A DNA stretch of 64,000 nt, from positions 97 to 64,096 of the forward strand of contig JAZDKR010000024.1 of the NCBI GenBank assembly GCA_043802785.1, written 5' to 3'. The notes beneath the pieces are model-generated. The model worked only from the letters and a program-made list of their open reading frames with translations, had not been told where the DNA came from and made no database searches. The translations under genes and the position numbers were made by a program. This document shows, piece by piece, positions 7,567-53,535 of the stretch. Numbering within the stretch: position 1 is the stretch's first letter; the number at the start of each line of letters is the position of its first letter. Source of the DNA: Elusimicrobiota bacterium. GTDB lineage: Bacteria > Elusimicrobiota > UBA8919.

Positions 7567-8412
7567 CTATCCCCTATCCCCTGCCTTTTTAATTCTTACC
7601 ACAAGGCATATAATCATCAGAACGATAGAACTTATTATAATTTCCGATTTGCTAAAAAAAACAGGTGTTTTGAAGTTTTGAACGAAAATATGTTCATTCA
7701 TCAGATATAAAATATAAAAGCCAATCCCGCCCCCTATAATAGCGTCTATCATGCCAAAAAAGATTTTTTTATCTCGCATAGCAGACACAGCGAGCGATAA
7801 CGAAACAACTGAAATAACAACAAATATAGCAAAAATTAAGTTCAGCCATCCGATCAAAGTATTGAATGTTTTATTTATAGTTAATAGATTTTCCGCTTCA
7901 ATTGAAGTGTAATAGATATCTTCCACACCGCTGAGTATTTTTATTTCTTCCGCAATTTTTTTTACAATTTCCGGATCTTTTCTCTTTAAGTAAATATCAA
8001 CAGTTGCTGGCAACGGATTTTCTCCAAGAATTTCCATCTGTTTGGCAAACTCGGGATTTTTTCTGAATTCATCCATTGCTTCCGTTTTTGAAGTATATTT
8101 TATTTTGTCAATTATTTTTATATTTTCAATTTTTTTGATAAGTTCGTTTTTCTGATGAACATTTAATTTATCGTCAATAAATGCAACTATTTCAACCCGC
8201 TCGGAAAGTTCGGAAAGATAGTAGGAAAGATTTTTCACGATAAGTGAAAAAAAACCGTAAAACACAACCGAAATTGTAACAAATGCTATAACAAGCAGCC
8301 CCTGCAGATTTCTTTGAAATCTAACCACAGGAGCAGGTGATATTTTTTTCATAACGGACTTCATTGTACCATATTTTAACTGCATGTCAACCAACAACCC
8401 TTCACTCTTCAC
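7567..8412 (-). CDS. ftsX: Cell-division permease-like protein FtsX.
   Basis: FtsX-like topology: one TM helix, a periplasmic domain and three C-terminal TM helices. Sits next to the EnvC-like gene. The C-terminal KAGDRG and the TAG stop are encoded by the GGGGATAG repeat. Confidence 0.65.
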   Translation of the reverse strand: MKSEGLLVDMQLKYGTMKSVMKKISPAPVVRFQRNLQGLLVIAFVTISVVFYGFFSLIVKNLSYYLSELSERVEIVAFIDDKLNVHQKNELIKKIENIKIIDKIKYTSKTEAMDEFRKNPEFAKQMEILGENPLPATVDIYLKRKDPEIVKKIAEEIKILSGVEDIYYTSIEAENLLTINKTFNTLIGWLNLIFAIFVVISVVSLSLAVSAMRDKKIFFGMIDAIIGGGIGFYILYLMNEHIFVQNFKTPVFFSKSEIIISSIVLMIICLVVRIKKAGDRG

Positions 8413-9554
8413 TCTTCACGGACTTCTAACCCAGATATGCACAATTCTGCCGTCTTTTTTGACTTATTTTGCAAATCATCTATAACCGCAAACATTTTCT
8501 CCGAATTGTTCTTATCTATTTTATCCAAAATCTGCGAATATATTTTTTCATTGCTATCGTAAATAGGTTCTCCTATCATCTGTAAAAAGTTTTTAATTTT
8601 CGAATATCGTGGTATCGGAACAAAAGGAATTTTATATTTTACAGCCAGAATTAATCCATGCAACCTCATACTTACTATTATGTAAAGTTTAGAAAATAAT
8701 TCCAAAAGTTGCCCTGTATCATTCCATACAAAAATATCAACCGGAACATTTGTATTATTCTTGATTACATTCAGCAATTTTATATCTTTTGACAACTGAA
8801 ACGGTATGAGAACAACTTCGGCTTTCAAGTTTTTTACAATCAAATCGGACAGTTCGGAAAATACTTGGACATCTTTTTTCCAATTTTTTGTTTTTCTTAA
8901 AATTATCCCAACCATTTGTTTTTTAGGTAGAGAACGGTCTTCTTGGAAATCCGCCAAAGTTTTAATGGTGGGCTTGCCCGCCGATGGTTCAGTGGATAGA
9001 GACCGTTCAATTGAGATGACAGGGTCTAAAGACCCTGTTCTACCTCGTACTTTTAAGCCGAAAACAGGGTCAGCCGTAACAGTAATTTCTTTATTTATTC
9101 CAAAAGATACGAGCAACTTCTTATCTTGCTCCGTTCTTACCGTGATAAAATCAACATTGTTGAAACACTTTTTTATCAAAAAAATATTGAATGAATATCT
9201 AATTTCTCCAATTCCGGTGGCATAAATAAAAACGGTTTTTTTGAAAATTTTTGCGGTTAAAATTATCAAAAGATAATACCACAAACTTAATATGCCTGTT
9301 GTATCCTGAAAAAGTCCGCCGCTGCCTGATAACAGCATTTTACATTTTGCAATTTCCTTGACGATAGAAAAAACATTCCATCTGTTGACGGCACACACAT
9401 TATGCTCATTAGAAGTTTCGTTTGGTGTAGCGGATAAAACGGTAATGTTAACATCCGGCTTGTAAAACCGTAGGTCAGTTATCATTGCCTTGAGAATAAG
9501 TTCATCTCCGGCATTTTTGAAACCATAATAACCGGAGATAAGTATATCAGCCAT
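8409..9554 (-). CDS. csaB: Polysaccharide pyruvyl transferase (CsaB-like). Carries an in-frame repeat insertion at about 8966-9062.
   Basis: N-terminal ISGYYGFKNAGDELIL is typical of the pyruvyl transferase family. Confidence 0.7.
   Translation of the reverse strand: MADILISGYYGFKNAGDELILKAMITDLRFYKPDVNITVLSATPNETSNEHNVCAVNRWNVFSIVKEIAKCKMLLSGSGGLFQDTTGILSLWYYLLIILTAKIFKKTVFIYATGIGEIRYSFNIFLIKKCFNNVDFITVRTEQDKKLLVSFGINKEITVTADPVFGLKVRGRTGSLDPVISIERSLSTEPSAGKPTIKTLADFQEDRSLPKKQMVGIILRKTKNWKKDVQVFSELSDLIVKNLKAEVVLIPFQLSKDIKLLNVIKNNTNVPVDIFVWNDTGQLLELFSKLYIIVSMRLHGLILAVKYKIPFVPIPRYSKIKNFLQMIGEPIYDSNEKIYSQILDKIDKNNSEKMFAVIDDLQNKSKKTAELCISGLEVREE
8966..9062. repeat. Palindromic element with core gaccgttcaattgagatgacagggtctaaagacc, sitting in-frame inside csaB.
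   Basis: The same core is found in reverse orientation inside glnN at about 26085-26150. Both copies read through in frame. Confidence 0.7.
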
Positions 9555-9555
9555 A

Positions 9556-9695
9556 TATCGTCGCTTCGCTCCTACGCGAATAATCGCTAATCAAACGCAA
9601 ATATTCGCGAATATCTGCATTCCATTCACGACCATTCGCATTGTTTTTATTCGCGTGTATTCGCGTGCCACTTATTCGCGTCTATTCGCGTTTTA
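9556..9695. promoter_or_regulatory. CGCGAA phased repeat array (A4), the longest copy, upstream of csaB.
   Basis: Sequence cgcgaataatcgctaatcaaacgcaaatattcgcgaatatctgcattccattcacgaccattcgcattgtttttattcgcgtgtattcgcgtgccacttattcgcgtctattcgcg. Nearly identical to 50396-50510. Confidence 0.65.
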
Positions 9696-15280: not shown

Positions 15281-15352
15281 ATTCAGGATTAAGTCGTAAG
15301 GATTAAGAAGTCAGGATTAAGAATTAAGTAAAAACTTAATCCTGCTTTTTTT
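15281..15352. repeat. GGATTAAG tandem repeat with an inverted copy, followed by a T-run. This forms a terminator-like hairpin on the plus strand.
   Basis: Sequence caggattaagaattaagtaaaaacttaatcctgcttttttt. Confidence 0.6.
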
Positions 15353-17999: not shown

Positions 18000-18365
18000 G
18001 ATTGTTGGTAATAAAGATTAGGAGATTAGGAAAAAGAGTTAACTCCTCAAAACCAATTACTACTGCTGTGTCCCTAATTTCTTGACATTTGGCTGTTCCC
18101 GACAAATCGGGGCTCGTGGCAATCTCGGTATTAAAGTCGGGATTGCCTGCCCGACAGCTGTCAGGCGGGCTTCGGGCTTTGCCCTCGCAATGAGGCCGTG
18201 TCACAATTACCGTTTTTTTTGGTTTTGTCATTCCCGCATGTCTTTGGCGGGAATCCATTCTTCGACAATGACACAACTTGCTGGATTCCGTGTCAAGCAC
18301 GGAATGACGGACTTTTCAACAATTATGACACAGCCGCAATGACATGTAAAATATTTTATGCCCCC
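18000..18365. repeat. Cluster of nested palindromic elements spanning about 360 bp with no coding capacity.
   Basis: Motifs gtcattcccgc / cgggaatcc, ggattccgtgtcaagcacggaatgacgg and cgcaatgac. The plus-strand ORFs here (17965-18488) are artefacts of the repeats. Confidence 0.7.
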
Positions 18366-19452: not shown

Positions 19453-19625
19453 AAAAACCCCTCCTTTTTTCAGTAGTAAGGATTAAGTTATAAGTTATAA
19501 GAATTAAGAAGTCAGGATTAAGAATTAAGTAGTAAGAATTAAGTAAAAACTTAATCCTTAATCCTTAATCCTTATCATTTACCACTTACCACTTACCACT
19601 TAATCCTACCTTGCCTTATTCTACC
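19453..19625. repeat. Arrays of GGATTAAG / CCTTAAT and CCACTTAC tandem units forming inverted repeats.
   Basis: Sequence aggattaag(n) ... cttaatccttaatccttaatcc ... ccacttaccacttaccactt. Confidence 0.7.
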
Positions 19626-25781: not shown

Positions 25782-28091
25782 TTAATAGACAAAAAGCATT
25801 TCTCTGTATTTCGGAAGAATCCAGTATTCGTCCCCGGTATGTTCTTCAAGGGCGTCAACCGTTTCCCTTAAATTGTACATCAAAGGAATTATTTCCATGC
25901 AATAGAAATTTGCCTTTTCGTCTTCTCGTTCTATTTTTTCCTTTTTGTCAAGCACGGACTGAAGTTTCTCTGTCTTTTCGTAAAGTTCTACGACAAGTTT
26001 TGAATACATTGAGACAATTTCCGATTCTTTTTTCAGCACTTTGGCATCAATTCCATTTATGCAAGGTAGGACAGCCGAGTAGGTTCGCCTGTGGCGAAGG
26101 TCTTTAGACCCTGTCATCTCGGTTGAACGGTCTAAAGACCGTTCACTACCATTCATTGAAATTCCTAAACATGACCTTAAGTTATTTACCGACTCTGCCA
26201 AAACATTCTGATATTTGACTACTGCGGGAAACACAAGTGTTTTAGCCATCATCAAAACGGTCTCAACTTCTATATTTACAACTTTTATGTACTGCTCAAC
26301 CAATATCGTGTAAATTGATTCTATCTCAACTTCGCTCAGAACATTTAATCTTGTGAAGACATCTTTATTTTTTTTGGTTACAAGGTCTTTCAACGATTCG
26401 GGTGTGGTTTTTTTATTCGGCAATCCGCGTTTTTTTGCTTCTTTTTCCCAGGCAGTATCATAGTTGTTACCTTCAAATCTTATTGGCGCTGTTTCAGTTA
26501 TTAAAGGAATAATCGCTTTTAATACAACCCTGTTAATATCTTTCTCTTTTTTCAGATTATCCTCTATTTCTTTATAGAGGTCGTTCAGAACATCGGCGAC
26601 AATAACATTCAGCGTATAATTTGCCATCGCAATAGAATGTGATGAACCCACCGCTCTGAACTCAAACTTGTTGCCGGTAAACGCAAATGGAGAAGTCCTG
26701 TTTCTGTCGCTAGTGTCTCTATTTATCGTCGGTAATTTGCCGATACCCATATCTATAATTGCCTTATCACTATAATCCGCTTTTTTATTTTTTTCCAGAT
26801 TGTTTAGAATTTCTGTGAGTTGTTCTCCCAGAAATATGGAAATTATCGCAGGTGGTGCCTCGTTTGCACCTAATCTATGGTCATTACCGGCTGTCGCAAC
26901 AGTTGCCCGCAACAAATCAGAATACTTATAAACGGCTTTCATTGTAGCGAGCAGGAAAGTTAAAAACTGCAAGTTTGCATGCGGCGTTTTGCCTGGTTCA
27001 AGTAGATTCGTACCGTCGGAATCCGCCATGGACCAGTTATTGTGCTTTCCAGAACCGTTTATGCCCAAAAACGGTTTCTCGTGCAATAAGAGTGCGAGAT
27101 TGTGCCTGTTTGCAATCTTCTTTAATGTTTCCATTATTATCTGGTTATGGTCGGTGGCAACATTGCTGTCCTCAAACAACGGTGCGATTTCAAACTGTGC
27201 AGGAGCAACTTCGTTGTGCCTTGTTTTCACGGGAATTCCAAACTTAAAAAGTTCTAACTCCGAATCATGCATAAACGCAAGAATTCTTTCCCTGATGCTG
27301 CCAAAATAGTGATCCTCCATTTCCTGACCTTTGGGCGGTTTCGCACCGAATAATGTTCTGCCGGTAATGATTAAATCCGGTCTTCTGTTGTAATATGCTT
27401 TGTCAACCAAAAAATATTCTTGTTCGGAACCCACAGTCGCATAAACCCTGTTTATTTTTTTATTTCCGAAAAGGTGCAATATCTTTACGGCAACTTCACT
27501 TAATCTGTCCATTGAACGCAGAAGCGGCGTTTTTTTATCCAATGCCTCACCCGTATATGATAAAAATACACAGGGAATGCAAAGTGTTGTGCCGTTGACG
27601 GCTTCAACCAAAAATGCCGGCGAGGTGGGATCCCACGCAGTATAACCCCTCGCTTCAAAAGTACTTCTCAACCCACCGCTTGGGAAAGAAGAAGCATCTG
27701 GTTCGCCTTGTATAAGATTGCTTCCTGAAAATCTTTCTATGATTTTACCATCTTTGCTGAAACTCAGAAAACTGTCATGCTTTTCCGCCGTCAAACCCGT
27801 CATCGGATGAAACCAGTGAGTAAAATGTGTCGCACCTCTGCCAATTGCCCATTCTTTCATACCTTGTGCAACTTCTTCCGCTAATATCGGTTCAACTCTC
27901 CCGCCTTCCTTGATTATTTTTTTTAACGCTTCATATGTTTTGTAAGGCAGATGTTTTTTCATTGCCTCGTCGTTAAAAGAGTTCATCCCGTATATTTCCG
28001 AGATAGGTTTCCCTTTCATTTTCGTGCTAATCGTCTGGCATAAATTTCTCTGGTTTGTAATTTCTGAAATTATCTGTTCTCTGTATTGCAT
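25782..28091 (-). CDS. glnN: Glutamine synthetase type III. Carries an in-frame repeat insertion at about 26046-26160.
   Basis: 769 aa. The N-terminal HFTHWFHPMTGLTAEKHDSF and the overall length fit GSIII. The insert encodes MNGSERSLDRSTEMTGSKDLRHRR. Confidence 0.8.
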   Translation of the reverse strand: MQYREQIISEITNQRNLCQTISTKMKGKPISEIYGMNSFNDEAMKKHLPYKTYEALKKIIKEGGRVEPILAEEVAQGMKEWAIGRGATHFTHWFHPMTGLTAEKHDSFLSFSKDGKIIERFSGSNLIQGEPDASSFPSGGLRSTFEARGYTAWDPTSPAFLVEAVNGTTLCIPCVFLSYTGEALDKKTPLLRSMDRLSEVAVKILHLFGNKKINRVYATVGSEQEYFLVDKAYYNRRPDLIITGRTLFGAKPPKGQEMEDHYFGSIRERILAFMHDSELELFKFGIPVKTRHNEVAPAQFEIAPLFEDSNVATDHNQIIMETLKKIANRHNLALLLHEKPFLGINGSGKHNNWSMADSDGTNLLEPGKTPHANLQFLTFLLATMKAVYKYSDLLRATVATAGNDHRLGANEAPPAIISIFLGEQLTEILNNLEKNKKADYSDKAIIDMGIGKLPTINRDTSDRNRTSPFAFTGNKFEFRAVGSSHSIAMANYTLNVIVADVLNDLYKEIEDNLKKEKDINRVVLKAIIPLITETAPIRFEGNNYDTAWEKEAKKRGLPNKKTTPESLKDLVTKKNKDVFTRLNVLSEVEIESIYTILVEQYIKVVNIEVETVLMMAKTLVFPAVVKYQNVLAESVNNLRSCLGISMNGSERSLDRSTEMTGSKDLRHRRTYSAVLPCINGIDAKVLKKESEIVSMYSKLVVELYEKTEKLQSVLDKKEKIEREDEKANFYCMEIIPLMYNLRETVDALEEHTGDEYWILPKYREMLFVY

Positions 28092-28109
28092 TGTTTCGCC
28101 TCCTGTTCA

Positions 28110-28160
28110 GGATTAAGGATTAAGTAGTAAGGATTAAGTTTTTTCTTAATCCTGCCTTTG
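28110..28160. repeat. GGATTAAG hairpin (aggattaag tttttt cttaatcct).
   Basis: Lies between glnB and glnN. Confidence 0.65.
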
Positions 28161-28196
28161 TATTTTATTAAATAAATCTTGGAATGTCAAATTTTT

Positions 28197-34609: not shown

Positions 34610-34735
34610 ACTTCTTAAATCAGAATTAAGACATCAGTAATAAGGATTAAGCCGCTCACCCCGACAAGTCGGGGTTCGCTTTAAGTATTAAGTTTTTTCT
34701 TAATCCTTACAACTTAATCCTTAATCCTGCTTCTG
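34610..34735. repeat. GGATTAAG hairpin element with an embedded ccccgacaagtcgggg hairpin.
   Basis: Read directly from the sequence. Confidence 0.6.
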
Positions 34736-36524: not shown

Positions 36525-36625
36525 ACACCAGAGATTAGGAGATTAAGAAATTATGAGATTAGGGATGAGGCAAAATCTCAATATCCTAATCTCCTAATCT
36601 CCCAATCTCCTAATCTCTCTTTTTT
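36525..36625. repeat. GAGATTAG tandem and inverted hairpin element.
   Basis: Sequence cagagattaggagattaagaaattatgagattaggg ... ctcaatatcctaatctcctaatctcccaatctcctaatctctc. Confidence 0.7.
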
Positions 36626-38172
36626 ATCACCTGTCTCCCTCTCGCAATTGCCAGTTTATTGTCAGGAACATTCTCAGTAATGGTTGAGCCGGCAGCAATC
36701 AAAACCCCTTTTCCTATTTTAATAGGCGCAATGAAATTAGTATTGCTTCCGACGAATGTGGAATCGCCAATTTCCGTTTTATGTTTATTTTTACCGTCGT
36801 AATTACAGGTAATCGTGCCGGCACCTATATTTATATTTTTTCCGAGTGTAGAATCACCGATATATGAAAGATGTGAGACCTTTGTATTTTCACCAATAAT
36901 TGATTTTTTAATCTCCGAGAAATTACCGATGAGAGCGTGCCTTGCTATTTTTGTTTCCTTTCTTATATGAGAAAACGGACCTACTCGGACATCGTCGGCA
37001 ATTTCGGCTCCGCAAACAAAAGATGCCTTTATTTCAACATTTTTTCCGACGATGCAATCCTCAATATAACTAAAAGGTCCAATCGTGCTGCCCGTTTTTA
37101 TTTTCGTTTTGCCTTTGATAATTGTTGAAGGTAAAATAGTGACATCTTTTTCAATCTCAACCGTTTCCTCTATGTGAACTGTCCCGGGATTGACAATCGT
37201 AACGCCGGCGAGCATTAGATTTTTAAGAACCTTTTCTCTGATGTAATTCTCCGCTTGGGCAAGTTCGCATCTGTTATTTATTCCCATAATTTCCTTGAAA
37301 TCCTTAATTTTATAGGCGATAACTTTTTTGCGGGAACCGCTTCGACTTAAAATTGACACAACATCCGTCAGATAATACTCGCCTTTTGAATTATCGTTTT
37401 TTATCTCGCGCAGTGCAGAAAAAAGTTCTTTCGACGAAAAGACATAAATACCTGAGTTGATTTCCTTTATTTTTTTGATTTCATATGAGGCATCTTTTGC
37501 CTCAACAATTGACTTAACCGTTCCATCGATATTTCGGACAATTCTTCCGTAATGCGAAGGATTTTCTATCTCGCAAGTAAGCACTGTCGCAACAGCTTTT
37601 TCTTTTTTGTGAACTGATAGCAATTTGTCAACAGTTTCTTTCGTAAGAAGCGGAACATCACCGGAAAGTATAACCAAATCGCCTGTTCCCTCACAACGGG
37701 ACTCCGCACATTTAACAGCATCACCGGAACCAAGTTGTTTTTCCTGTTCAACAAAAACCACCTGACTAAGAGGTTGTCCGACAACCCCTGTTTTTTGGTT
37801 TTGACCGTCATTCCGTGCTTGACACGGAATCCATTCTCCGACGGTAACACAATTTTCTGAGAGCCTGCCCCGCGCTTTGACACGGGGGACCTTTTGACCA
37901 TTGTCGGACAACCTCCCAAGAGCCGTCATGCTTGCCATTCTATCGCTTATCGCTTTTTTGACAAGTTCTGCTTTGTGCCCTACAACGACAATTTTTTTAT
38001 CAAAACCGTTGTCTATAATTTCAATGACCCTTTCAATAATTGTTTTGCCCAAAATTTTATGAAGAACTTTCGGCGTTTCCGACTTAAACCTTGTTCCTTC
38101 ACCTGCAGCAAGAATAATACAAACAATACTTCCCATAGCAATTGAAATACAATGGAACCACGATGGAGACAC
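36610..38172 (-). CDS. glmU: Bifunctional GlmU (UDP-GlcNAc pyrophosphorylase / GlcN-1-P acetyltransferase). Carries an in-frame insertion of about 60 aa, at about 37764-37947.
   Basis: N-terminal LAAGEGTRFKSETPKVLH, a C-terminal left-handed beta-helix (hexapeptide) domain, and the glmU-prs-rplY-pth synteny. The insert encodes WIPCQARNDG, which is also present in a spurious ORF in the 18000-18365 repeat block. Confidence 0.85.
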   Translation of the reverse strand: MSPSWFHCISIAMGSIVCIILAAGEGTRFKSETPKVLHKILGKTIIERVIEIIDNGFDKKIVVVGHKAELVKKAISDRMASMTALGRLSDNGQKVPRVKARGRLSENCVTVGEWIPCQARNDGQNQKTGVVGQPLSQVVFVEQEKQLGSGDAVKCAESRCEGTGDLVILSGDVPLLTKETVDKLLSVHKKEKAVATVLTCEIENPSHYGRIVRNIDGTVKSIVEAKDASYEIKKIKEINSGIYVFSSKELFSALREIKNDNSKGEYYLTDVVSILSRSGSRKKVIAYKIKDFKEIMGINNRCELAQAENYIREKVLKNLMLAGVTIVNPGTVHIEETVEIEKDVTILPSTIIKGKTKIKTGSTIGPFSYIEDCIVGKNVEIKASFVCGAEIADDVRVGPFSHIRKETKIARHALIGNFSEIKKSIIGENTKVSHLSYIGDSTLGKNINIGAGTITCNYDGKNKHKTEIGDSTFVGSNTNFIAPIKIGKGVLIAAGSTITENVPDNKLAIARGRQVIKKRD

Positions 38173-40591: not shown

Positions 40592-40786
40592 GTGAAACAA
40601 CTGGATCATGCAAAATTACAAACTTTATCACTAAAGTTGTCTCGGTATTCAAAATTCGCTCACTCGGAACGCTTAACAAAATTTAACAAAGTTCTGTTAA
40701 CTGATGATAAAATGATTACACAGATTAAAAGCCAAATTACATTCACCCCGTTAGATAAGATTCTCTATCTAACGGGGCAGGAATAA
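40592..40786 (+). CDS. Hypothetical small protein of 64 aa. It is the only non-overlapping plus-strand ORF.
   Basis: ORF only; I see no recognisable motif. Confidence 0.2.
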   Translation: MKQLDHAKLQTLSLKLSRYSKFAHSERLTKFNKVLLTDDKMITQIKSQITFTPLDKILYLTGQE

Positions 40787-44390: not shown

Positions 44391-45884
<1,494 letters not shown>

Positions 45885-47155: not shown

Positions 47156-47232
47156 ACCGCTAAACTGACGCTAAACTTTGAAAACCCGCGAAACTAACGC
47201 GAAATGTTTTGCGTCTGTTTTGCGGTTGTTAG
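47156..47232. promoter_or_regulatory. ACGCTAAA / ACGCGAAA phased array (B2), upstream of metK.
   Basis: Sequence ccgctaaactgacgctaaactttgaaaacccgcgaaactaacgcgaaatgttttgcgtctgttttgcg. Confidence 0.55.
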
Positions 47233-48882
47233 ATTATCACAAATTTTTTCGGCAAAATCAAGTAATTTTTTTGTTTTGCCGAGTGAATCTGTTTCAGAGT
47301 ATGTCCTTAAAATCGGCTCTGTTCCCGACGGACGAAGCAATAGCCAACCTGTCCCGCCAAGGCGGGACGGATCAAAAATTATTTTTATTCCGTCATAGGT
47401 TCTGATTTCCTTGATCCCGCCGAGGCGAGACGCGAATTGCCACGAATTTCCGCCAAAGGCGGACGAATTGGGACGAATTTTTTGTTCAATCTGTTTAACA
47501 AATTCTTGCTTATCAACGGGCTTTGAAAGTTTTATATCTCTTCTTAAATAATATGATTTCCCGAATCTTTTTTGCAAATCATCAACTAACTGTGAAAGTT
47601 TTTTCTTTGTTTGCGAAAGCATCTCGGTAATTAAAAGTGCATTTAAGATACCGTCTCGTTCCGGTATGCTGCCTTTCCATCCGTAACCGCCGGATTCTTC
47701 ACCACCGAGCAAAACATTTTCAGCGAGCATTTTTTCACAAACATACTTGAAACCGACAGGAACCTCTTCAAAAGGGAGACAAAATTTTTTCGCAATTCTT
47801 TCGGAAAGATACCCAAGTGAAATCGCCTGAACAACTTTTCCTTTTATTTTTCTTCCTTCTACAAGATACAACAAAATCAGAGGAAAAACAATATGCGGTG
47901 AAAGATATCTGCCTTTGTCGTCTATAACACCCAAGCGGTCAGCGTCGCCGTCAAAAGCAAAACCTACGGCTGCCCCATTTTTCAATACCACTTTTTTTAG
48001 TTCTGTGAGATTTTTTTCTATCGGCTCGGGATTTACTCCGGCAAATAATGGGTCATGAGAATTATGTATTGAATAAATCTTTGAGATTCTTCGTCCCGTT
48101 ATGCGGGACTCAGAATGACTTTGCGAGTCATTTTTGAATCCGCCACAGACGGACTCAAAAATACCAACGCCGCTTCCATGCATATAATCAAGGACAATTT
48201 TGGATTTTGATGATGGATTCAATCTAACAAGTGATTTCAGATATTTTTTGTAATCGCTGATAATATCCACTCTTCGCGTCATTGCGAGGTCGTCACTGCG
48301 ACCTCGCAATGACAATTGTTGGATATCCTCATTATTAGTTTTGACAGCACTCTTATACAGATGTTTTGAAATTGTATTTATGATTTTTTCCGAAACAGAA
48401 CCTCCGTATTGAAGTTTTATTTTTAGACCGTTCCAGTCGGGCGGATTATGACTTGCCGTTATCATCACCCCAAGACAATTGTTTTTTTTACAAAAAAATG
48501 AGACCGATGGCGAAGTTGCTGCCGTCTGCGAAACCGCCGAATGTATCCCATTCGCAGAAATAACTCTTGCAACATGGAGTGCAAATTTCTCCGAAAGAAA
48601 CCTGTTGTCATACCCGACGATAACGACAGGGGATAGGGGGTAGGGGATAGGGTGTAGCGGCGAATGTAAATTCGCTAAATTTGTCCGCCTAGGCGGACCG
48701 CTACACCCTACTCCCTCCACACTACACTCTGCCTTTATATAATCCGCAATCGCCTGAGCAACTATTCCAACATTCTCAAAGGTAAAGTCCCTTGCAATTA
48801 TCCCGCGCCACCCGTCAGTACCAAACTTAATGGCAGGGGATAGGGGATAGGGGATAGGGGATAGTAGTTTTTGTTTTTCCAT
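47194..48882 (-). CDS. Phosphomannomutase / phosphoglucomutase family enzyme carrying about five in-frame repeat insertions.
   Basis: FGTDGWRG, TASHNP, RPSGTEP. Inserts at about 48834-48870, 48627-48729, 48270-48312, 48069-48132 and 47415-47472. Confidence 0.8.
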   Translation of the reverse strand: MEKQKLLSPIPYPLSPAIKFGTDGWRGIIARDFTFENVGIVAQAIADYIKAECSVEGVGCSGPPRRTNLANLHSPLHPIPYPLSPVVIVGYDNRFLSEKFALHVARVISANGIHSAVSQTAATSPSVSFFCKKNNCLGVMITASHNPPDWNGLKIKLQYGGSVSEKIINTISKHLYKSAVKTNNEDIQQLSLRGRSDDLAMTRRVDIISDYKKYLKSLVRLNPSSKSKIVLDYMHGSGVGIFESVCGGFKNDSQSHSESRITGRRISKIYSIHNSHDPLFAGVNPEPIEKNLTELKKVVLKNGAAVGFAFDGDADRLGVIDDKGRYLSPHIVFPLILLYLVEGRKIKGKVVQAISLGYLSERIAKKFCLPFEEVPVGFKYVCEKMLAENVLLGGEESGGYGWKGSIPERDGILNALLITEMLSQTKKKLSQLVDDLQKRFGKSYYLRRDIKLSKPVDKQEFVKQIEQKIRPNSSAFGGNSWQFASRLGGIKEIRTYDGIKIIFDPSRLGGTGWLLLRPSGTEPILRTYSETDSLGKTKKLLDFAEKICDNLTTAKQTQNISR

Positions 48883-51534: not shown

Positions 51535-52307
51535 ATAATATTTTTCGAAATCTTGGATTTGCCAATCGATCTATCGGCAAAAAATATAGGGTACTCAAAA
51601 ATTTTATATCCGAGTTTGTGTGCCCTGTATTTCATTTCTATCAAAAATCCATAACCCTCTGACTTCACTTCGTCAAGATTTATATTTTCCAGCACTTTAC
51701 GACGGAAACCCATAAAACCAGATGTGCAGTCATTAACAGGCATACATAAAACTGTTTTCGCATACAAATTCCCCAGACGGGATATTATTTTTCTATGGAC
51801 GGGCATTGAATTACAACCGCCTTTTACATAACGAGAACCGACTACTAAATCATAACTTTTGAGTTTTTTTAGGAACCCCAAAAAACATTCCGGGTTATGG
51901 GAAAAATCTGCATCCATAGTAAAAATAAAATCAAAATCTCTTACCAAAGCCCACTTAAATCCTTGAATGTATGCTGTCCCAAGTCCAAGTTTTTTTTCAC
52001 GATGAATAATTTCTAATTGAGATTGCGAAGATTGTTCCAATTCTGTCATATGAGATTGCTTCGTCGTCCCGATCTTATCGGGACTCCTCGCAATGACACT
52101 TTGTGCCGCTTTTAACCCTTCCGATATCTCTCCCGTTCCGTCGGGCGAATTATCGTCAATGATTAAGAGATTGAGATCGCCCGCCACACGGATCGGCGAG
52201 TCCGCCTTTGGCGGAAGATTGAGAACTTGGTCAACAATCTTTTCTATATTTTCTCTCTCGTTATATGTCGGGATTATAATCAAAACTTTACTTTTTTTTA
52301 GTGACAT
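51477..52307 (-). CDS. GT2 glycosyltransferase, polyprenol-phosphate mannosyltransferase-like. Carries two in-frame repeat insertions at about 52175-52214 and 52040-52105.
   Basis: IIIPTYNEREN ... DDNSPDGT. The inserts encode PPKADSPIRVAGD and ...ARSPDKIGTTKQSHMTEL... Confidence 0.7.
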   Translation of the reverse strand: MSLKKSKVLIIIPTYNERENIEKIVDQVLNLPPKADSPIRVAGDLNLLIIDDNSPDGTGEISEGLKAAQSVIARSPDKIGTTKQSHMTELEQSSQSQLEIIHREKKLGLGTAYIQGFKWALVRDFDFIFTMDADFSHNPECFLGFLKKLKSYDLVVGSRYVKGGCNSMPVHRKIISRLGNLYAKTVLCMPVNDCTSGFMGFRRKVLENINLDEVKSEGYGFLIEMKYRAHKLGYKIFEYPIFFADRSIGKSKISKNIIWEAIFLVWKLKFMEIQPQ

Positions 52308-53436
52308 ATTTTAATGTTTTCTTTGAATAATTGTAATAAGAAATATGCGGGCGACCTTGTTTATCAAGCATTATGGATGTATCAAATCCGACAATACCTT
52401 CGGCATCAATCGTCTGAATTTTCCATTCAGAACCCGTCCAGTAAGCATATTTAAGGTCAGAGTTGCCATAATACGAAACGTGCGGAGTCACATCAGGCAA
52501 CTTTGCATCCAGAGTTATTGATGTATATTCACCAACATAACCTTCACTGTCAACCGTCTGGATAGCCCATGCAGAACCAGTCCAGTGAGCATATTTTAAA
52601 TCCCTATTGGTAGCATCATAATATGCTATATGCGGAAAATTATTGCTATCAACCACTATGGAACTATCTTCACCAACTTCACCTGTTGAATCAACCGTCT
52701 GAATATCCCACGAAGAACCAGTCCAACGAGCATATTTTAAATCACCGTTGGTAGAATCATAATATGCTATATGCGGAAAATTATTGCTATCAATCGCGAT
52801 GGAGGTGAACTTGCCTACCGCACCGGCTGAATCAACCATCTGAATATTCCACGAAGAACCAGTCCAATGAGCATACTTTAAGTCGCCGTTGGTAGAATCA
52901 TAATATGCTATATGTTTGAAATCGTTACTAACCGCTATGGAACTATCTTCACCGACTTCGCCTATTGAATCAACCGTCTGAACATCCCACGATAAACCAT
53001 CCCAACGAGCATACTTTAAATCCTTGTTGGTAGAATCATAATACGCTATATGTGAAAAATTGCTACTGACTGCTATAGATGTGAACTTGTATGTTTCACC
53101 GTTAGACGGAGTATATTGTTTTTCCCAAGAATTGCCTGTCCATTTAAGATACCCTACACCTTTTTTGCTACAAAACGAAAGATTAGGAAAATCATTACTA
53201 TCAAGGCACATTGAAGCATACTCTCCTTCTTCATCACTTTCTGAAGTAAGCGTTTGGATATCCCAGCCGTCAACTGGCAAAGATACCACCACTTTTTCGT
53301 CTGTTAGATTTACATTTAATCTTCTTTCCGACTCACAATAAAGGCAGGAAGTGGTAAGTAGTAAGTGGTAAGTGGTAAGGATTAAGAAGGCAGAATTAAG
53401 TAACTTGTTCATCTGTACAATCTGTAATTTTCTCAT
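52288..53436 (-). CDS. Secreted protein made of about 6 tandem repeats of roughly 46 aa (YYDSTNGDLKYA[HR]WTGSSW.IQTVDS.G.VG..SSI ... PHIA).
   Basis: Signal peptide. At the DNA level this is a tandem unit of about 138 bp with high identity. Confidence 0.6.
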   Translation of the reverse strand: MRKLQIVQMNKLLNSAFLILTTYHLLLTTSCLYCESERRLNVNLTDEKVVVSLPVDGWDIQTLTSESDEEGEYASMCLDSNDFPNLSFCSKKGVGYLKWTGNSWEKQYTPSNGETYKFTSIAVSSNFSHIAYYDSTNKDLKYARWDGLSWDVQTVDSIGEVGEDSSIAVSNDFKHIAYYDSTNGDLKYAHWTGSSWNIQMVDSAGAVGKFTSIAIDSNNFPHIAYYDSTNGDLKYARWTGSSWDIQTVDSTGEVGEDSSIVVDSNNFPHIAYYDATNRDLKYAHWTGSAWAIQTVDSEGYVGEYTSITLDAKLPDVTPHVSYYGNSDLKYAYWTGSEWKIQTIDAEGIVGFDTSIMLDKQGRPHISYYNYSKKTLKYVTKKK

Positions 53437-53535
53437 TTTTTTTCCTCCTCCATTAACGACAGAGATTAGAGATTAGAGAATTAGAAAAATCCTTAATCAC
53501 TTAATCACTCAATCTCTTAATCTCCAATCTCTGCC
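53340..53535. repeat. GGTAAGT/GGATTAAG and GAGATTAG hairpin elements flanking the start of the repeat protein.
   Basis: Direct reading. Confidence 0.65.

What the first reader, a model, noticed from the sequence alone, without database searches (positions are those of the whole stretch)
37764..37947. A 60-aa in-frame insertion in glmU, derived from a dispersed hairpin element (the WIPCQARNDG peptide)
GlmU normally runs straight from the N-terminal pyrophosphorylase motifs to ...QVVFVEQEKQLGSGDAV. Here SDRMASMTALGRLSDNGQKVPRVKARGRLSENCVTVGEWIPCQARNDGQNQKTGVVGQPLS is interposed. The DNA ccgtcattccgtgcttgacacggaatcc is the reverse complement of ggattccgtgtcaagcacggaatgacgg in the intergenic repeat block at 18280-18310. 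Spurious ORFs in that block translate to the same WIPCQARNDG. An essential cell-wall precursor enzyme is therefore tolerating a 180-bp element in the middle of its catalytic domain.
Basis: partly seen in the sequence, partly recalled or inferred. Interest (0 to 1): 0.8.

Follow-up and report, generated by a model that had tools for sequence, protein, structure and literature searches.

The report
Mobile hairpin element inserted in-frame in glmU
A 174-base copy of a nested-hairpin repeat, built around the hairpin that Ssn single-strand DNA nucleases recognise, sits in frame in a surface loop of the essential cell-wall enzyme GlmU of an Elusimicrobiota genome; this is a real but already known kind of event, like the palindromic elements found inside Rickettsia genes.

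Summary
glmU (36610-38136, minus strand) carries a 58-codon, stop-free insertion (37765-37938). It is absent from the 19 closest GlmU homologues (64-83% identical) and from all solved GlmU structures.

The 146-nt core of the insert (37770-37915) is collinear, part for part, with a 146-nt intergenic element at 18192-18337. Both have an outer 15-17-bp inverted repeat, a T-rich linker, a forward hairpin, a linker, an inverted partner hairpin, and the closing repeat. Six more copies with this architecture come from other phyla, and their outer stems show compensatory changes.

The hairpin (C-GTC-ATTCCGTG-CTTGA-CACGGAAT-C) has the flanks of the Neisseria NTS/dRS3 repeat, one of the Ssn-related motifs (PMC11893778). 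In other genomes the identical hairpin flanks small GIY-YIG genes. It also lies in frame inside real genes there.

A phosphosugar mutase gene in this window carries two further hairpin-derived in-frame inserts.

The insert maps to a helix-to-strand loop and is modelled as disordered. Conserved motifs and gene order are intact. Enzyme activity and the insertion mechanism are inferred, not shown.

Verdict: a new member of a known kind, of moderate interest.

The parts
36610..38136 (-). glmU coding sequence (508 aa from the ATG at 38136; NCBI annotates 520 aa from the GTG at 38172)
   Evidence: Pfam NTP_transferase and Hexapep. PDB GlmU matches at E = 1e-117. Foldseek top hits are all GlmU. prs lies directly downstream, as in relatives. 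NCBI protein MFH0947858.1.
37765..37938 (-). In-frame insertion of 174 nt = 58 codons (MASMTALGRL...VVGQPLS). It is open only in the frame glmU uses.
   Evidence: Absent from 19 homologues and from PDB GlmUs. Empty site seen in L001/L002 DNA. GC is 0.52 against 0.38 for the rest of the gene. One of six frames is stop-free, and 5% of shuffles are stop-free.
37770..37784 (+). Outer inverted repeat, left arm: GAGGTTGTCCGACAA
   Evidence: 100% complementary to 37901-37915. Forms the base of a 20-bp stem in the fold. Aligns with the outer arms of 7 other copies, with compensatory changes.
37901..37915 (+). Outer inverted repeat, right arm: TTGTCGGACAACCTC
37806..37833 (+). Forward NTS/SRM-type hairpin: C-GTC-ATTCCGTG-CTTGA-CACGGAAT-C-CA. 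On the coding strand it reads WIPCQARNDG.
   Evidence: Exact repeat of 18282-18310. GTC upstream and C downstream of the palindrome, as required for SsnA cleavage and binding. The identical hairpin flanks GIY-YIG genes in other genomes.
37867..37890 (-). Inverted partner hairpin: GTC-CCCCGTG-TCAAAG-CGCGGGG-C. It is a degenerate SRM-like hairpin convergent with the first.
   Evidence: Found by the GTC-palindrome-C scan. Second inner hairpin in the fold. Occupies the position of the GGATTnC...GnAATGAC partner in the other copies.
37916..37938 (+). Extra 23 nt between the outer repeat and glmU sequence (CCAAGAGCCGTCATGCTTGCCAT). It contains a half-hairpin-like CGTCATGC and supplies the Met-Ala-Ser... 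start of the inserted peptide.
   Evidence: Read directly from the sequence against the empty site. Its origin is unexplained.
18192..18337 (+). Intergenic sibling element of 146 nt. Outer repeat GAGGCCGTGTCACAATTA / AATTATGACACAGCCGC, forward hairpin at 18226-18258, inverted hairpin at 18282-18310.
   Evidence: Collinear alignment with the glmU insert. 18226-18258 matches the published SRM search string. Lies between a hydrolase-like ORF and recA.

Best explanation
The insert is a copy of a small non-autonomous palindromic repeat. Its unit is about 146 nt: an outer 15-20-bp inverted repeat enclosing two convergent hairpins of the NTS / Ssn-related-motif (SRM) type. That is the motif that GIY-YIG single-strand DNA nucleases of the Ssn family bind and cut.

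One copy, together with about 28 nt of adjoining sequence, landed in glmU. The site is the loop between the helix ending at ...KKAISD and the strand VVFVEQ that leads to the uridine-binding Gln-x4-Leu-Gly-Ser-Gly motif.

The total is 174 nt and has no stop codon in the glmU frame, so the gene stays one open reading frame. The product should be an ordinary GlmU carrying a 58-residue, probably disordered, surface loop. The peptide is a passenger: in an essential gene, only insertions that preserve the frame and the fold survive.

Shown here:
- the insertion and its uniqueness to this genome;
- its composite anatomy and its intergenic sibling;
- the wider element family, with covarying stems;
- the link between the identical hairpin and GIY-YIG genes elsewhere;
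- in-frame copies of the same hairpin in other genes.

Inferred:
- that the enzyme is active;
- that spread of the element involves an Ssn-type nuclease or single-stranded hairpin intermediates.
For: Insertion and its uniqueness.

Composition and frame: GC 0.52 against 0.38, and only one of six frames is open.

Fold: dG -75.6 kcal/mol, z = -4.7, with a 20-bp terminal stem and two inner hairpins.

Sibling element: full-length collinearity with the 146-nt intergenic element at 18192-18337.

Wider family: the same architecture appears in L011, L016, L091, L078 (two copies) and L048. The outer stem is 92% paired across 8 copies, with 7 of 15 pairs changed on both sides. Slid controls give 30-50% pairing.

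Hairpin identity:
- It shares CGTCATTCC...GGAATC with the NTS consensus CGTCATTCCCGCGMAVGCGGGAATCYRG.
- It has the GTC and C determinants.
- It was found in at least 120 loci from many phyla.
- The unconstrained loop is CTTGA in 74 of 117 copies outside the array genome.
- An inverted partner lies within 90 nt in 47 of 113 non-array loci.
- GIY-YIG ORFs sit beside it in 7 loci, on both sides in L030, L118, L042 and L039.

In-frame copies elsewhere: they split a NAD_binding_4 domain in L023 and a GT41 domain in L121.

Same window: two SRM-like hairpins lie in frame in the phosphosugar mutase gene, and both are absent from most or all homologues.

GlmU integrity:
- Invariant motifs are kept.
- Gene order is kept.
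- Residues 71-123 have pLDDT below 50 while the flanking core is confident.
- The core matches GlmU structures.
- NCBI annotates an intact protein.
Against: - No Ssn/GIY-YIG gene lies in the 64-kb window, and the rest of the genome could not be read.
- The glmU hairpin does not match the published degenerate SRM search string; only the 18226 copy does.
- No target-site duplication or consistent flank was found among 8 copies, so the insertion mechanism is unknown.
- The outer-repeat-bounded unit is 146 nt, which is not a multiple of three. The frame is kept only thanks to about 28 extra nt of unexplained origin.
- No second copy with the same outer repeat was found in JGI metagenomes.
- Enzyme activity, transcription and translation of the insert are untested.
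Confidence: 0.85

Rival explanations
1. The interrupted glmU is inactive or decaying, and another gene supplies UDP-GlcNAc.
For: A 58-aa insertion lies six residues before the uridine-binding Gln. Only 64 kb of the genome could be inspected.
Against: The ORF is fully open across 508 codons. Of the six frames of the insert, only the one glmU uses is stop-free. All columns that are invariant among the 20 aligned GlmU sequences are kept. The gene sits at the conserved glmU-prs locus. No second glmU is in the window (and the ORF scan).
Confidence: 0.08
2. The insert has been co-opted: either the loop has a function in the protein, or the strong mRNA hairpin regulates glmU expression.
For: The transcript segment folds at -75.6 kcal/mol. 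A related genome (L003) has a different palindrome two codons away, and another relative has a third palindrome in a different loop. This could mark either a selected site or a merely permissive one.
Against: The insert is absent from every close relative, so it is recent. The peptide is just the translation of a repeat found intergenically. It is modelled as disorder. The three GlmU inserts in relatives are unrelated in sequence, which fits permissive loops better than a shared function.
Confidence: 0.05
3. Assembly artefact: repeat-induced misjoining placed repeat sequence inside glmU in a metagenome-assembled genome.
For: The source is a MAG contig, and the insert contains a 29-nt exact repeat.
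Against: Both flanks continue glmU in register. The insert is exactly 58 codons and stop-free, whereas only about 5% of shuffles are stop-free and a third of random lengths would keep the frame. Apart from the 29-mer it differs from the other copy, so it is not a duplicated read path.
Confidence: 0.02
4. The segment is an intervening sequence, removed as an intein or an intron.
For: It interrupts a conserved enzyme without breaking the frame.
Against: At 58 aa it is far below the size of any intein. It begins Met-Ala-Ser and ends Pro-Leu-Ser, followed by Gln, so it lacks the splice-junction residues. No intron family or any other Rfam family matches here. It is a copy of an intergenic repeat.
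Confidence: 0.01

Closest known systems
NTS / dRS3 repeats of Neisseria and the wider Ssn-related motifs (SRM), targets of Ssn GIY-YIG single-strand DNA nucleases (PMC11893778)
   Same: The hairpin has the ATTCC...GGAAT palindrome, the oriented flanks CGTC... and ...C, and clustering into mosaic blocks. The identical hairpin flanks small GIY-YIG genes on both sides in other genomes.
   Different: - The stem is GTG/CAC rather than CGCG/GCGG, and the hairpin fails the published degenerate search string.
- Here it is part of a larger nested palindrome with covarying outer arms.
- It lies inside coding sequence and is translated. The paper's text contains neither 'intragenic' nor 'in-frame'.
- No ssn gene was seen in the window.
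Rickettsia palindromic elements (RPE), the 'protein-coding palindromes' (Ogata et al. 2000 and 2002, as summarised in PMC10969869)
   Same: A repeat of roughly 150 bp, palindromic, inserted in frame into unrelated housekeeping genes. The ORF is kept and the insert is predicted to sit where the fold tolerates it. Copies also occur between genes (for the description; here).
   Different: The host here is a free-living Elusimicrobiota MAG, not Rickettsia. Sequence relatedness to the RPE families was not tested. RPEs are described as carrying a conserved peptide ORF, whereas here only one of six frames is open.
REPINs (REP doublets) and BIMEs mobilised by RAYT transposases
   Same: Two inverted hairpins separated by a short spacer form a larger hairpin. 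They are dispersed and clustered, and are linked to a small single-strand-specific nuclease gene flanked by the same hairpins.
   Different: The conserved flank is GTC, not the GTAG of REPs. The associated gene is a GIY-YIG nuclease, not a Y1 HUH transposase. REPs and REPINs are extragenic.
Bacterial MITEs (for example Correia, ERIC, Nezha)
   Same: Small size, terminal inverted repeats, no coding capacity, and occasional in-frame intragenic copies.
   Different: No target-site duplication and no parent insertion sequence were found. The terminal repeats covary between copies instead of being conserved.

Membership tests
Ssn-related motif (SRM) / NTS hairpin repeats | Short palindrome predicted to form a hairpin, with an ATTCC...GGAAT-type core | tested here: met
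   ATTCCGTG-CTTGA-CACGGAAT forms an 8-bp stem. Compare the NTS and dRS3 definitions.
Ssn-related motif (SRM) / NTS hairpin repeats | Orientation-giving flanks: three nucleotides (GTC) upstream that govern cleavage, and a C immediately after the palindrome that governs binding | tested here: met
   The glmU copy reads C-GTC-[palindrome]-C-CA. The determinants are as described. The partner hairpin also reads GTC-[palindrome]-C.
Ssn-related motif (SRM) / NTS hairpin repeats | Match to the published degenerate search string HGTCWYN(0-2)YYVSBRHN(0-5)WNVSBRGN(0-2)RNCYNB | tested here: not met
   Only 18226-18258 matches. The glmU hairpin and its twin at 18283 do not match. By my own reading, not a tool result, their stem CCGTG is one base shorter than the string's fixed-length stem positions allow. 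The string is a hand-made search aid rather than a definition, so I file the hairpin as SRM-type on the other criteria. I flag this failure openly.
Ssn-related motif (SRM) / NTS hairpin repeats | Physical association with genes for small single-domain GIY-YIG (cd10448) proteins, typically flanking them | tested here: met
   In 835 kb around 120 hairpin loci, 7 loci hold a GIY-YIG ORF next to the identical hairpin. It flanks both sides in L030, L118, L042 and L039. Pfam GIY-YIG E-values are 1e-11 to 1e-16. CDD cd10448 assignment itself was not run. None is in the source window, and the rest of the source genome could not be tested.
Ssn-related motif (SRM) / NTS hairpin repeats | Cleaved as single-stranded DNA by the cognate Ssn nuclease | not testable with these tools
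   Needs the enzyme and an oligonucleotide assay.
RPE-type protein-coding palindromes | Palindromic repeat inserted in frame in a protein-coding gene, with the ORF preserved | tested here: met
RPE-type protein-coding palindromes | Sequence membership in one of the Rickettsia RPE families | not tested
The Ssn paper lists Rickettsia among genomes with more than 300 SRMs, which makes a link worth testing.
RPE-type protein-coding palindromes | Insertion at a position compatible with the host protein's fold | tested here: inconclusive
   The site is a helix-to-strand loop. Residues 71-123 have pLDDT below 50 with no secondary structure after residue 78, while the flanking core is confident. This is a prediction only.
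MITE | Terminal inverted repeats and small size without a transposase gene | tested here: met
   15-nt perfect arms, a 146-nt unit, and no long ORF of its own.
MITE | Target-site duplication flanking the element | tested here: not met
   No shared or duplicated flank among 8 aligned copies. The junctions in glmU show no direct repeat.
REPIN | Doublet of inverted hairpins separated by a short spacer | tested here: met
   Spacer of 26 nt at 18226-18310 and 35 nt in glmU. The partner lies mostly 9-30 nt away in other genomes.
REPIN | REP sequence with a conserved GTAG end and an associated RAYT (Y1 transposase) gene | not tested
   The conserved flank here is GTC, and the associated gene elsewhere is GIY-YIG. 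No search for a RAYT gene was run.
Intein | Splice-junction residues (Cys/Ser at the N-terminal end, His-Asn followed by Cys/Ser/Thr at the C-terminal end) and a size of at least about 130 aa | tested here: not met
   The insert is 58 aa, starts Met-Ala-Ser, and ends Pro-Leu-Ser followed by Gln.

The most novel reading that the evidence does not exclude
Nested palindromes built around Ssn-related hairpins may be a cross-phylum class of 'protein-coding palindromes'. On this reading they spread through single-stranded hairpin intermediates handled by Ssn-type GIY-YIG nucleases. They also enter coding sequence often enough that several housekeeping enzymes in one 64-kb stretch carry them. The Rickettsia RPEs would then be one local instance of the same class. 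If so, the newly described Ssn/SRM system would be a general source of new loops in bacterial proteins.
Probability: 0.3. Interest if true: 0.7.

Novelty: new member of a known kind. Interest (0 to 1): 0.5.

Why it matters
This is a clean natural experiment on how much foreign sequence an essential, drug-targeted enzyme can carry in its pyrophosphorylase domain.

It also ties two literatures together. One is the Ssn/NTS hairpins described in 2025. The other is the older finding of palindromic repeats translated inside genes.

The same 26-nt hairpin, with the same unconstrained loop, was found in at least 120 loci from many phyla. It occurs between genes, next to GIY-YIG genes, and in frame within enzymes. 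The Ssn paper's text contains neither 'intragenic' nor 'in-frame'.

For annotation, peptides such as WIPCQARNDG, SFPRRRES or LSLRGRSDDLAMT inside otherwise conserved proteins mark repeat insertions rather than new domains.

Tried and rejected
- **Protein search with the 58-aa insert alone.** No candidate was found. This used one of three searches and says little, because the index needs three shared 5-residue words.
- **Metagenome scan for both outer arms** at the right spacing: no hits.
- **Second metagenome scan** for the T-rich linker, hairpin and ATTCT: one hit (L124). Its hairpin is not SRM-like, so it was not used.
- **Literature search by DNA strings:** only unrelated primers.
- **BLAST of the insert against plasmids:** no match.
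- **Viral contigs:** one hit in 2.9 million contigs, so phage carriage is not supported.
- **Source contig look-ups** through the look-up of encoding contigs failed for four proteins. The source was identified instead by exact cluster look-up, as an NCBI Elusimicrobiota MAG contig of 64,096 nt.
- **GIY-YIG gene in the window:** none, best E = 0.58. The queries were two consensus-like sequences written from memory, which did find true GIY-YIG ORFs in the loci.
- **Intein, intron and assembly-artefact readings** were considered and rejected (see the rival explanations).
- **Target-site duplication:** none could be defined.
- **The 50-aa representative (P0244)** of the cluster holding the annotated GlmU is unrelated in sequence. 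That probably explains why the annotated protein did not appear.
Full report
**1. What is there**

The ORF on the minus strand from 38172/38136 to 36610 is GlmU. It has the nucleotidyltransferase and hexapeptide-repeat domains. It matches solved GlmU structures at E = 1e-117. A model built from it finds only GlmU structures as top hits.

HMMER breaks the match to S. pneumoniae GlmU into two pieces: query 5-66 against chain 4-66, and query 125-505 against chain 66-445. About 58 residues therefore have no counterpart.

The 19 closest database homologues are 64-83% identical outside the insert. Those that carry an organism name are labelled Elusimicrobia. They are 449-480 aa long and none has this segment.

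At the DNA level, relatives read ...ATAAGTGATAAA-AATATAGTTTTTGTTGAACAG. The window reads ...ATAAGCGATAGA-[174 nt]-GTGGTTTTTGTTGAACAG. The insertion is window 37765-37938.

Its GC content is 0.52, against 0.38 for the rest of the gene. Of its six frames only the one used by glmU is free of stops. About 5% of shuffles of the insert are stop-free.

**2. Anatomy of the insert**

The transcript strand folds at -75.6 kcal/mol (z = -4.7). The fold has a terminal stem of about 20 bp and two inner hairpins.

- The terminal stem comes from a perfect 15-nt inverted repeat: 37770-37784 GAGGTTGTCCGACAA and 37901-37915 TTGTCGGACAACCTC.
- Inside lie a T-rich linker and the hairpin C-GTC-ATTCCGTG-CTTGA-CACGGAAT-C (37806-37833).
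- A 35-nt spacer follows, and then an inverted second hairpin, GTC-CCCCGTG-TCAAAG-CGCGGGG-C, on the other strand at 37867-37890.
- The repeat-bounded unit is 146 nt. A further 23 nt on one side and about 5 on the other make up the 174 nt. Their origin is unexplained. One of them contains a half-hairpin-like CGTCATGC.

**3. It is a full copy of an element that also lies between genes**

In fact the whole unit is collinear with 18192-18337, which is also 146 nt and lies between a hydrolase-like ORF and recA. The two share every part:

- the outer repeat (GAGGCCGTGTCACAATTA / AATTATGACACAGCCGC);
- the linker TTTTTTGGTTTTG;
- a forward hairpin;
- the linker ATTCTnCGACnnTnACACAA;
- an inverted hairpin;
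- the closing repeat.

The stems differ between the two copies, but each copy keeps its own pairing.

Six of the copies found there have the same architecture: L011, L016, L091, two in L078, and L048. L011, L016, L048 and L078 are MAGs labelled Dehalococcoidales, Dysgonamonadaceae and Prevotella.

Across the 8 copies the 15-pair outer stem is 92% paired, and 7 pairs are changed on both sides. Sliding the partner columns by 1-3 gives 30-50% pairing.

Other loci wrap the same hairpin doublet in different outer repeats. One type is TCGTAAAAAGTCG... in Syntrophus-type MAGs. Another is GAGACCTTTGAA.... No target-site duplication is visible in any of them.

**4. What the hairpin is**

The Neisseria dRS3 repeat is ATTCCC-N8-GGGAAT. 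Its longer, oriented form, the NTS, is CGTCATTCCCGCGMAVGCGGGAATCYRG.

NTS-like 'Ssn-related motifs' (SRM) flank genes for small GIY-YIG proteins (Ssn, cd10448) across bacteria. SsnA cuts single-stranded DNA next to the hairpin. Cleavage depends on the three bases upstream of the palindrome. Binding depends on the C just after it (PMC11893778).

The glmU hairpin shares CGTCATTCC...GGAATC with the NTS and has both determinants.

Three features were not constrained by my search pattern:

- The loop is CTTGA in 74 of 117 copies outside one array-rich genome.
- The base before GTC is always T or C.
- The two bases after are AG in 81 of 117, as in the NTS.

By my own estimate, about 8 chance matches would be expected for a pattern of 20 specified bases in 596 Gb. 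At least 120 loci were found.

In 47 of 113 non-array loci an inverted partner hairpin lies within 90 nt downstream, mostly 9-30 nt away.

Seven loci hold a GIY-YIG ORF next to the identical hairpin. It lies on both sides of the ORF in L030, L118, L042 and L039. Four of the seven were checked against Pfam and match GIY-YIG at 1e-11 to 1e-16. This reproduces the NTS-ssn-NTS arrangement of the paper.

Two cautions apply. The published degenerate SRM string matches only the 18226 copy, not the glmU hairpin. And the window itself holds no GIY-YIG gene.

**5. The same hairpin is translated in other genes**

In the fetched loci the hairpin lies in long open frames in 13 cases. Three were examined further:

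- In L023 it splits a NAD_binding_4 / epimerase domain (...VIPAKAGIQRRELDSRFHGKPWIPCQARND...).
- In L121 it splits a GT41 glycosyltransferase domain (...RHSVLDTESSDLKTLDTDLRRYDG...).
- In L112 it lies in frame (...SFPRRRESRKGNWIPCQARND...) in an ORF with only a sub-threshold PS-DH match.

Within this window, the phosphoglucomutase/phosphomannomutase-family gene (47194-48882, minus strand) carries two more:

- GTCATTGCGAGG...CCTCGCAATGAC at 48278-48313, read as LSLRGRSDDLAMT;
- GTCATTCTGAG-TCCCG-CATAA-CGGGA-CGA-AGAATC at 48085-48119, read as SHSESRITGRRIS.

The first is missing from 9 of 11 close homologues and the second from all 11.

GlmU of two relatives carries other palindromes in frame:

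- L003 has a 48-nt insert, CCCTGTTAGAAAT...ATTTCTAACAGGG, two codons upstream of the window's site. The same outer stem occurs intergenically in the window at 40746-40777.
- P0021 has a 20-aa insert in another loop, with nested stems TTCGAC/GTCGAA and CGCTCAG/CTGAGCG.

In-frame palindrome insertion is therefore recurrent in this lineage, not a one-off.

**6. Consequence for the enzyme**

The site lies between the helix ending ...ELVKKAISD and the strand VVFVE. Six residues further on is Gln131 of the QLGSGDAV motif.

From established knowledge of GlmU structures, this Gln corresponds to Gln72 of S. pneumoniae and Gln76 of E. coli GlmU, which contact the uracil. In Rossmann-like folds, substrate-binding residues sit at the C-terminal ends of the strands. 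A loop entering a strand is therefore on the opposite face. That last step is inference.

In the AlphaFold model, residues 71-123 have pLDDT below 50 and no secondary structure after residue 78. The flanking core is confident.

All columns invariant among the 20 aligned GlmU sequences are kept, including LAAGEGTRF...PK, QLGSGDAV, GDVPL and NYDGKNK. prs follows directly downstream, as in relatives. NCBI annotates the gene as an intact 520-aa protein, MFH0947858.1, in an Elusimicrobiota MAG.

The gene therefore looks functional. No activity data exist.

**7. Mechanism and rivals**

*Most likely (0.85).* A selfish nested-palindrome repeat of the SRM class was inserted into glmU. It persists because the event kept the frame and hit a permissive loop. 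The peptide is a by-product.

How such elements move is not known. The Ssn authors note that the NTS-ssn-NTS layout resembles an insertion sequence and compare it with REP/RAYT. Three observations fit a mechanism acting on single-stranded hairpins rather than cut-and-paste by a DDE transposase, but they do not prove it:

- the lack of target duplications;
- the covariation of the arms;
- the doublet layout.

*Rivals.* An inactive gene (0.08), a co-opted loop or mRNA structure (0.05), an assembly artefact (0.02), and an intein or intron (0.01). The reasons are given under each rival.

**8. Comparison and novelty**

In behaviour this is what Ogata and colleagues described for Rickettsia palindromic elements: repeats of about 150 bp inserted in frame into housekeeping genes (summarised in PMC10969869). 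In sequence grammar the hairpin belongs with the NTS/SRM repeats.

I did not find the two connected. The text of the Ssn paper does not contain 'intragenic' or 'in-frame'. The only paper in the library that mentions these motifs is that one.

The finding is real and well supported. It is a new member of known kinds rather than a new kind. I score interest at 0.5.

The more ambitious reading is that SRM-based nested palindromes are a general, cross-phylum source of new protein loops and include the RPEs. That reading is open and testable.

Noticed in passing
window 47194-48882 (-), hairpins at 48278-48313 and 48085-48119: The phosphoglucomutase/phosphomannomutase-family gene carries two SRM-like hairpins in frame, read as LSLRGRSDDLAMT and SHSESRITGRRIS. 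It also has several other short lineage-specific inserts, including PIPYPLSP peptides that look like translated heptamer repeats. The first hairpin insert is missing from 9 of 11 homologues and the second from all 11 (62-75% identical).
   Followed up: partly
L003 6185-6235 (GlmU of P0002) and window 40746-40777: A related Elusimicrobia genome has a different 48-nt nested palindrome (CCCTGTTAGAAAT...ATTTCTAACAGGG) in frame in glmU, two codons from the window's insertion site. TAAG occurs on both sides. The same outer stem occurs intergenically in the window.
   Followed up: partly
L125 about 1650-1740 (GlmU of P0021): A third relative has a 20-aa in-frame insert (DSAMHRSVSTLSEVERVGSS) in another GlmU loop, encoded by a nested palindrome (TTCGAC...CGCTCAG...CTGAGCG..GTCGAA).
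   Followed up: partly
L025, L030, L037, L074, L075, L118, L122 (Thermodesulfobacteriota MAG OZ245366.1): This genome has long tandem arrays of hairpin doublets, with periods of about 112 nt and about 89 nt, next to a GIY-YIG gene. It also has large autotransporter-like ORFs in which the doublet is translated (PSRHSVPDTESSIQLANQYWIPASAGMTE).
   Followed up: partly
window 9000-9034 and 26099-26133: A 35-nt inverted pair, 94% complementary (AGACCGTTCAATTGAGATGACAGGGTCTAAAGACC), lies inside two different long ORFs (8412-9590 and 25785-28106, both minus strand).
   Followed up: no
window 44559-44577 and 52066-52084: Near-identical small hairpins GTCCCGAT(TGT/CTT)ATCGGGAC lie inside two long ORFs.
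   Followed up: no
window, many intergenic regions (for example 15285-15343, 19469-19620, 28095-28167, 34612-34729, 36530-36628, 48620-48864, 53337-53535): Intergenic spacers are filled with runs of 7-nt units (AGGATTA, GGGATAG, AGAGATT, ATTCGCG and their complements), often arranged as long imperfect hairpins between convergent or divergent genes.
   Followed up: no
window 52501-53061: Four tandem copies of a 141-nt unit (47 codons), 78-86% identical.
   Followed up: no
window 18100-18191: Upstream of the intergenic element lies a degenerate GGGATTGCC...CTCGCAATGA hairpin with a further palindrome (GCCTGCCCGACAGCTGTCAGGCGGGC) nested in its loop. GCAAT occurs at both ends of the 146-nt element, which suggests one repeat inserted into another.
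   Followed up: no
protein cluster of MFH0947858.1 (P0243): The 90%-identity cluster that holds the annotated 520-aa GlmU has an unrelated 50-aa fragment (P0244) as its representative. That is probably why the annotated protein did not show up in the homology search.
   Followed up: partly
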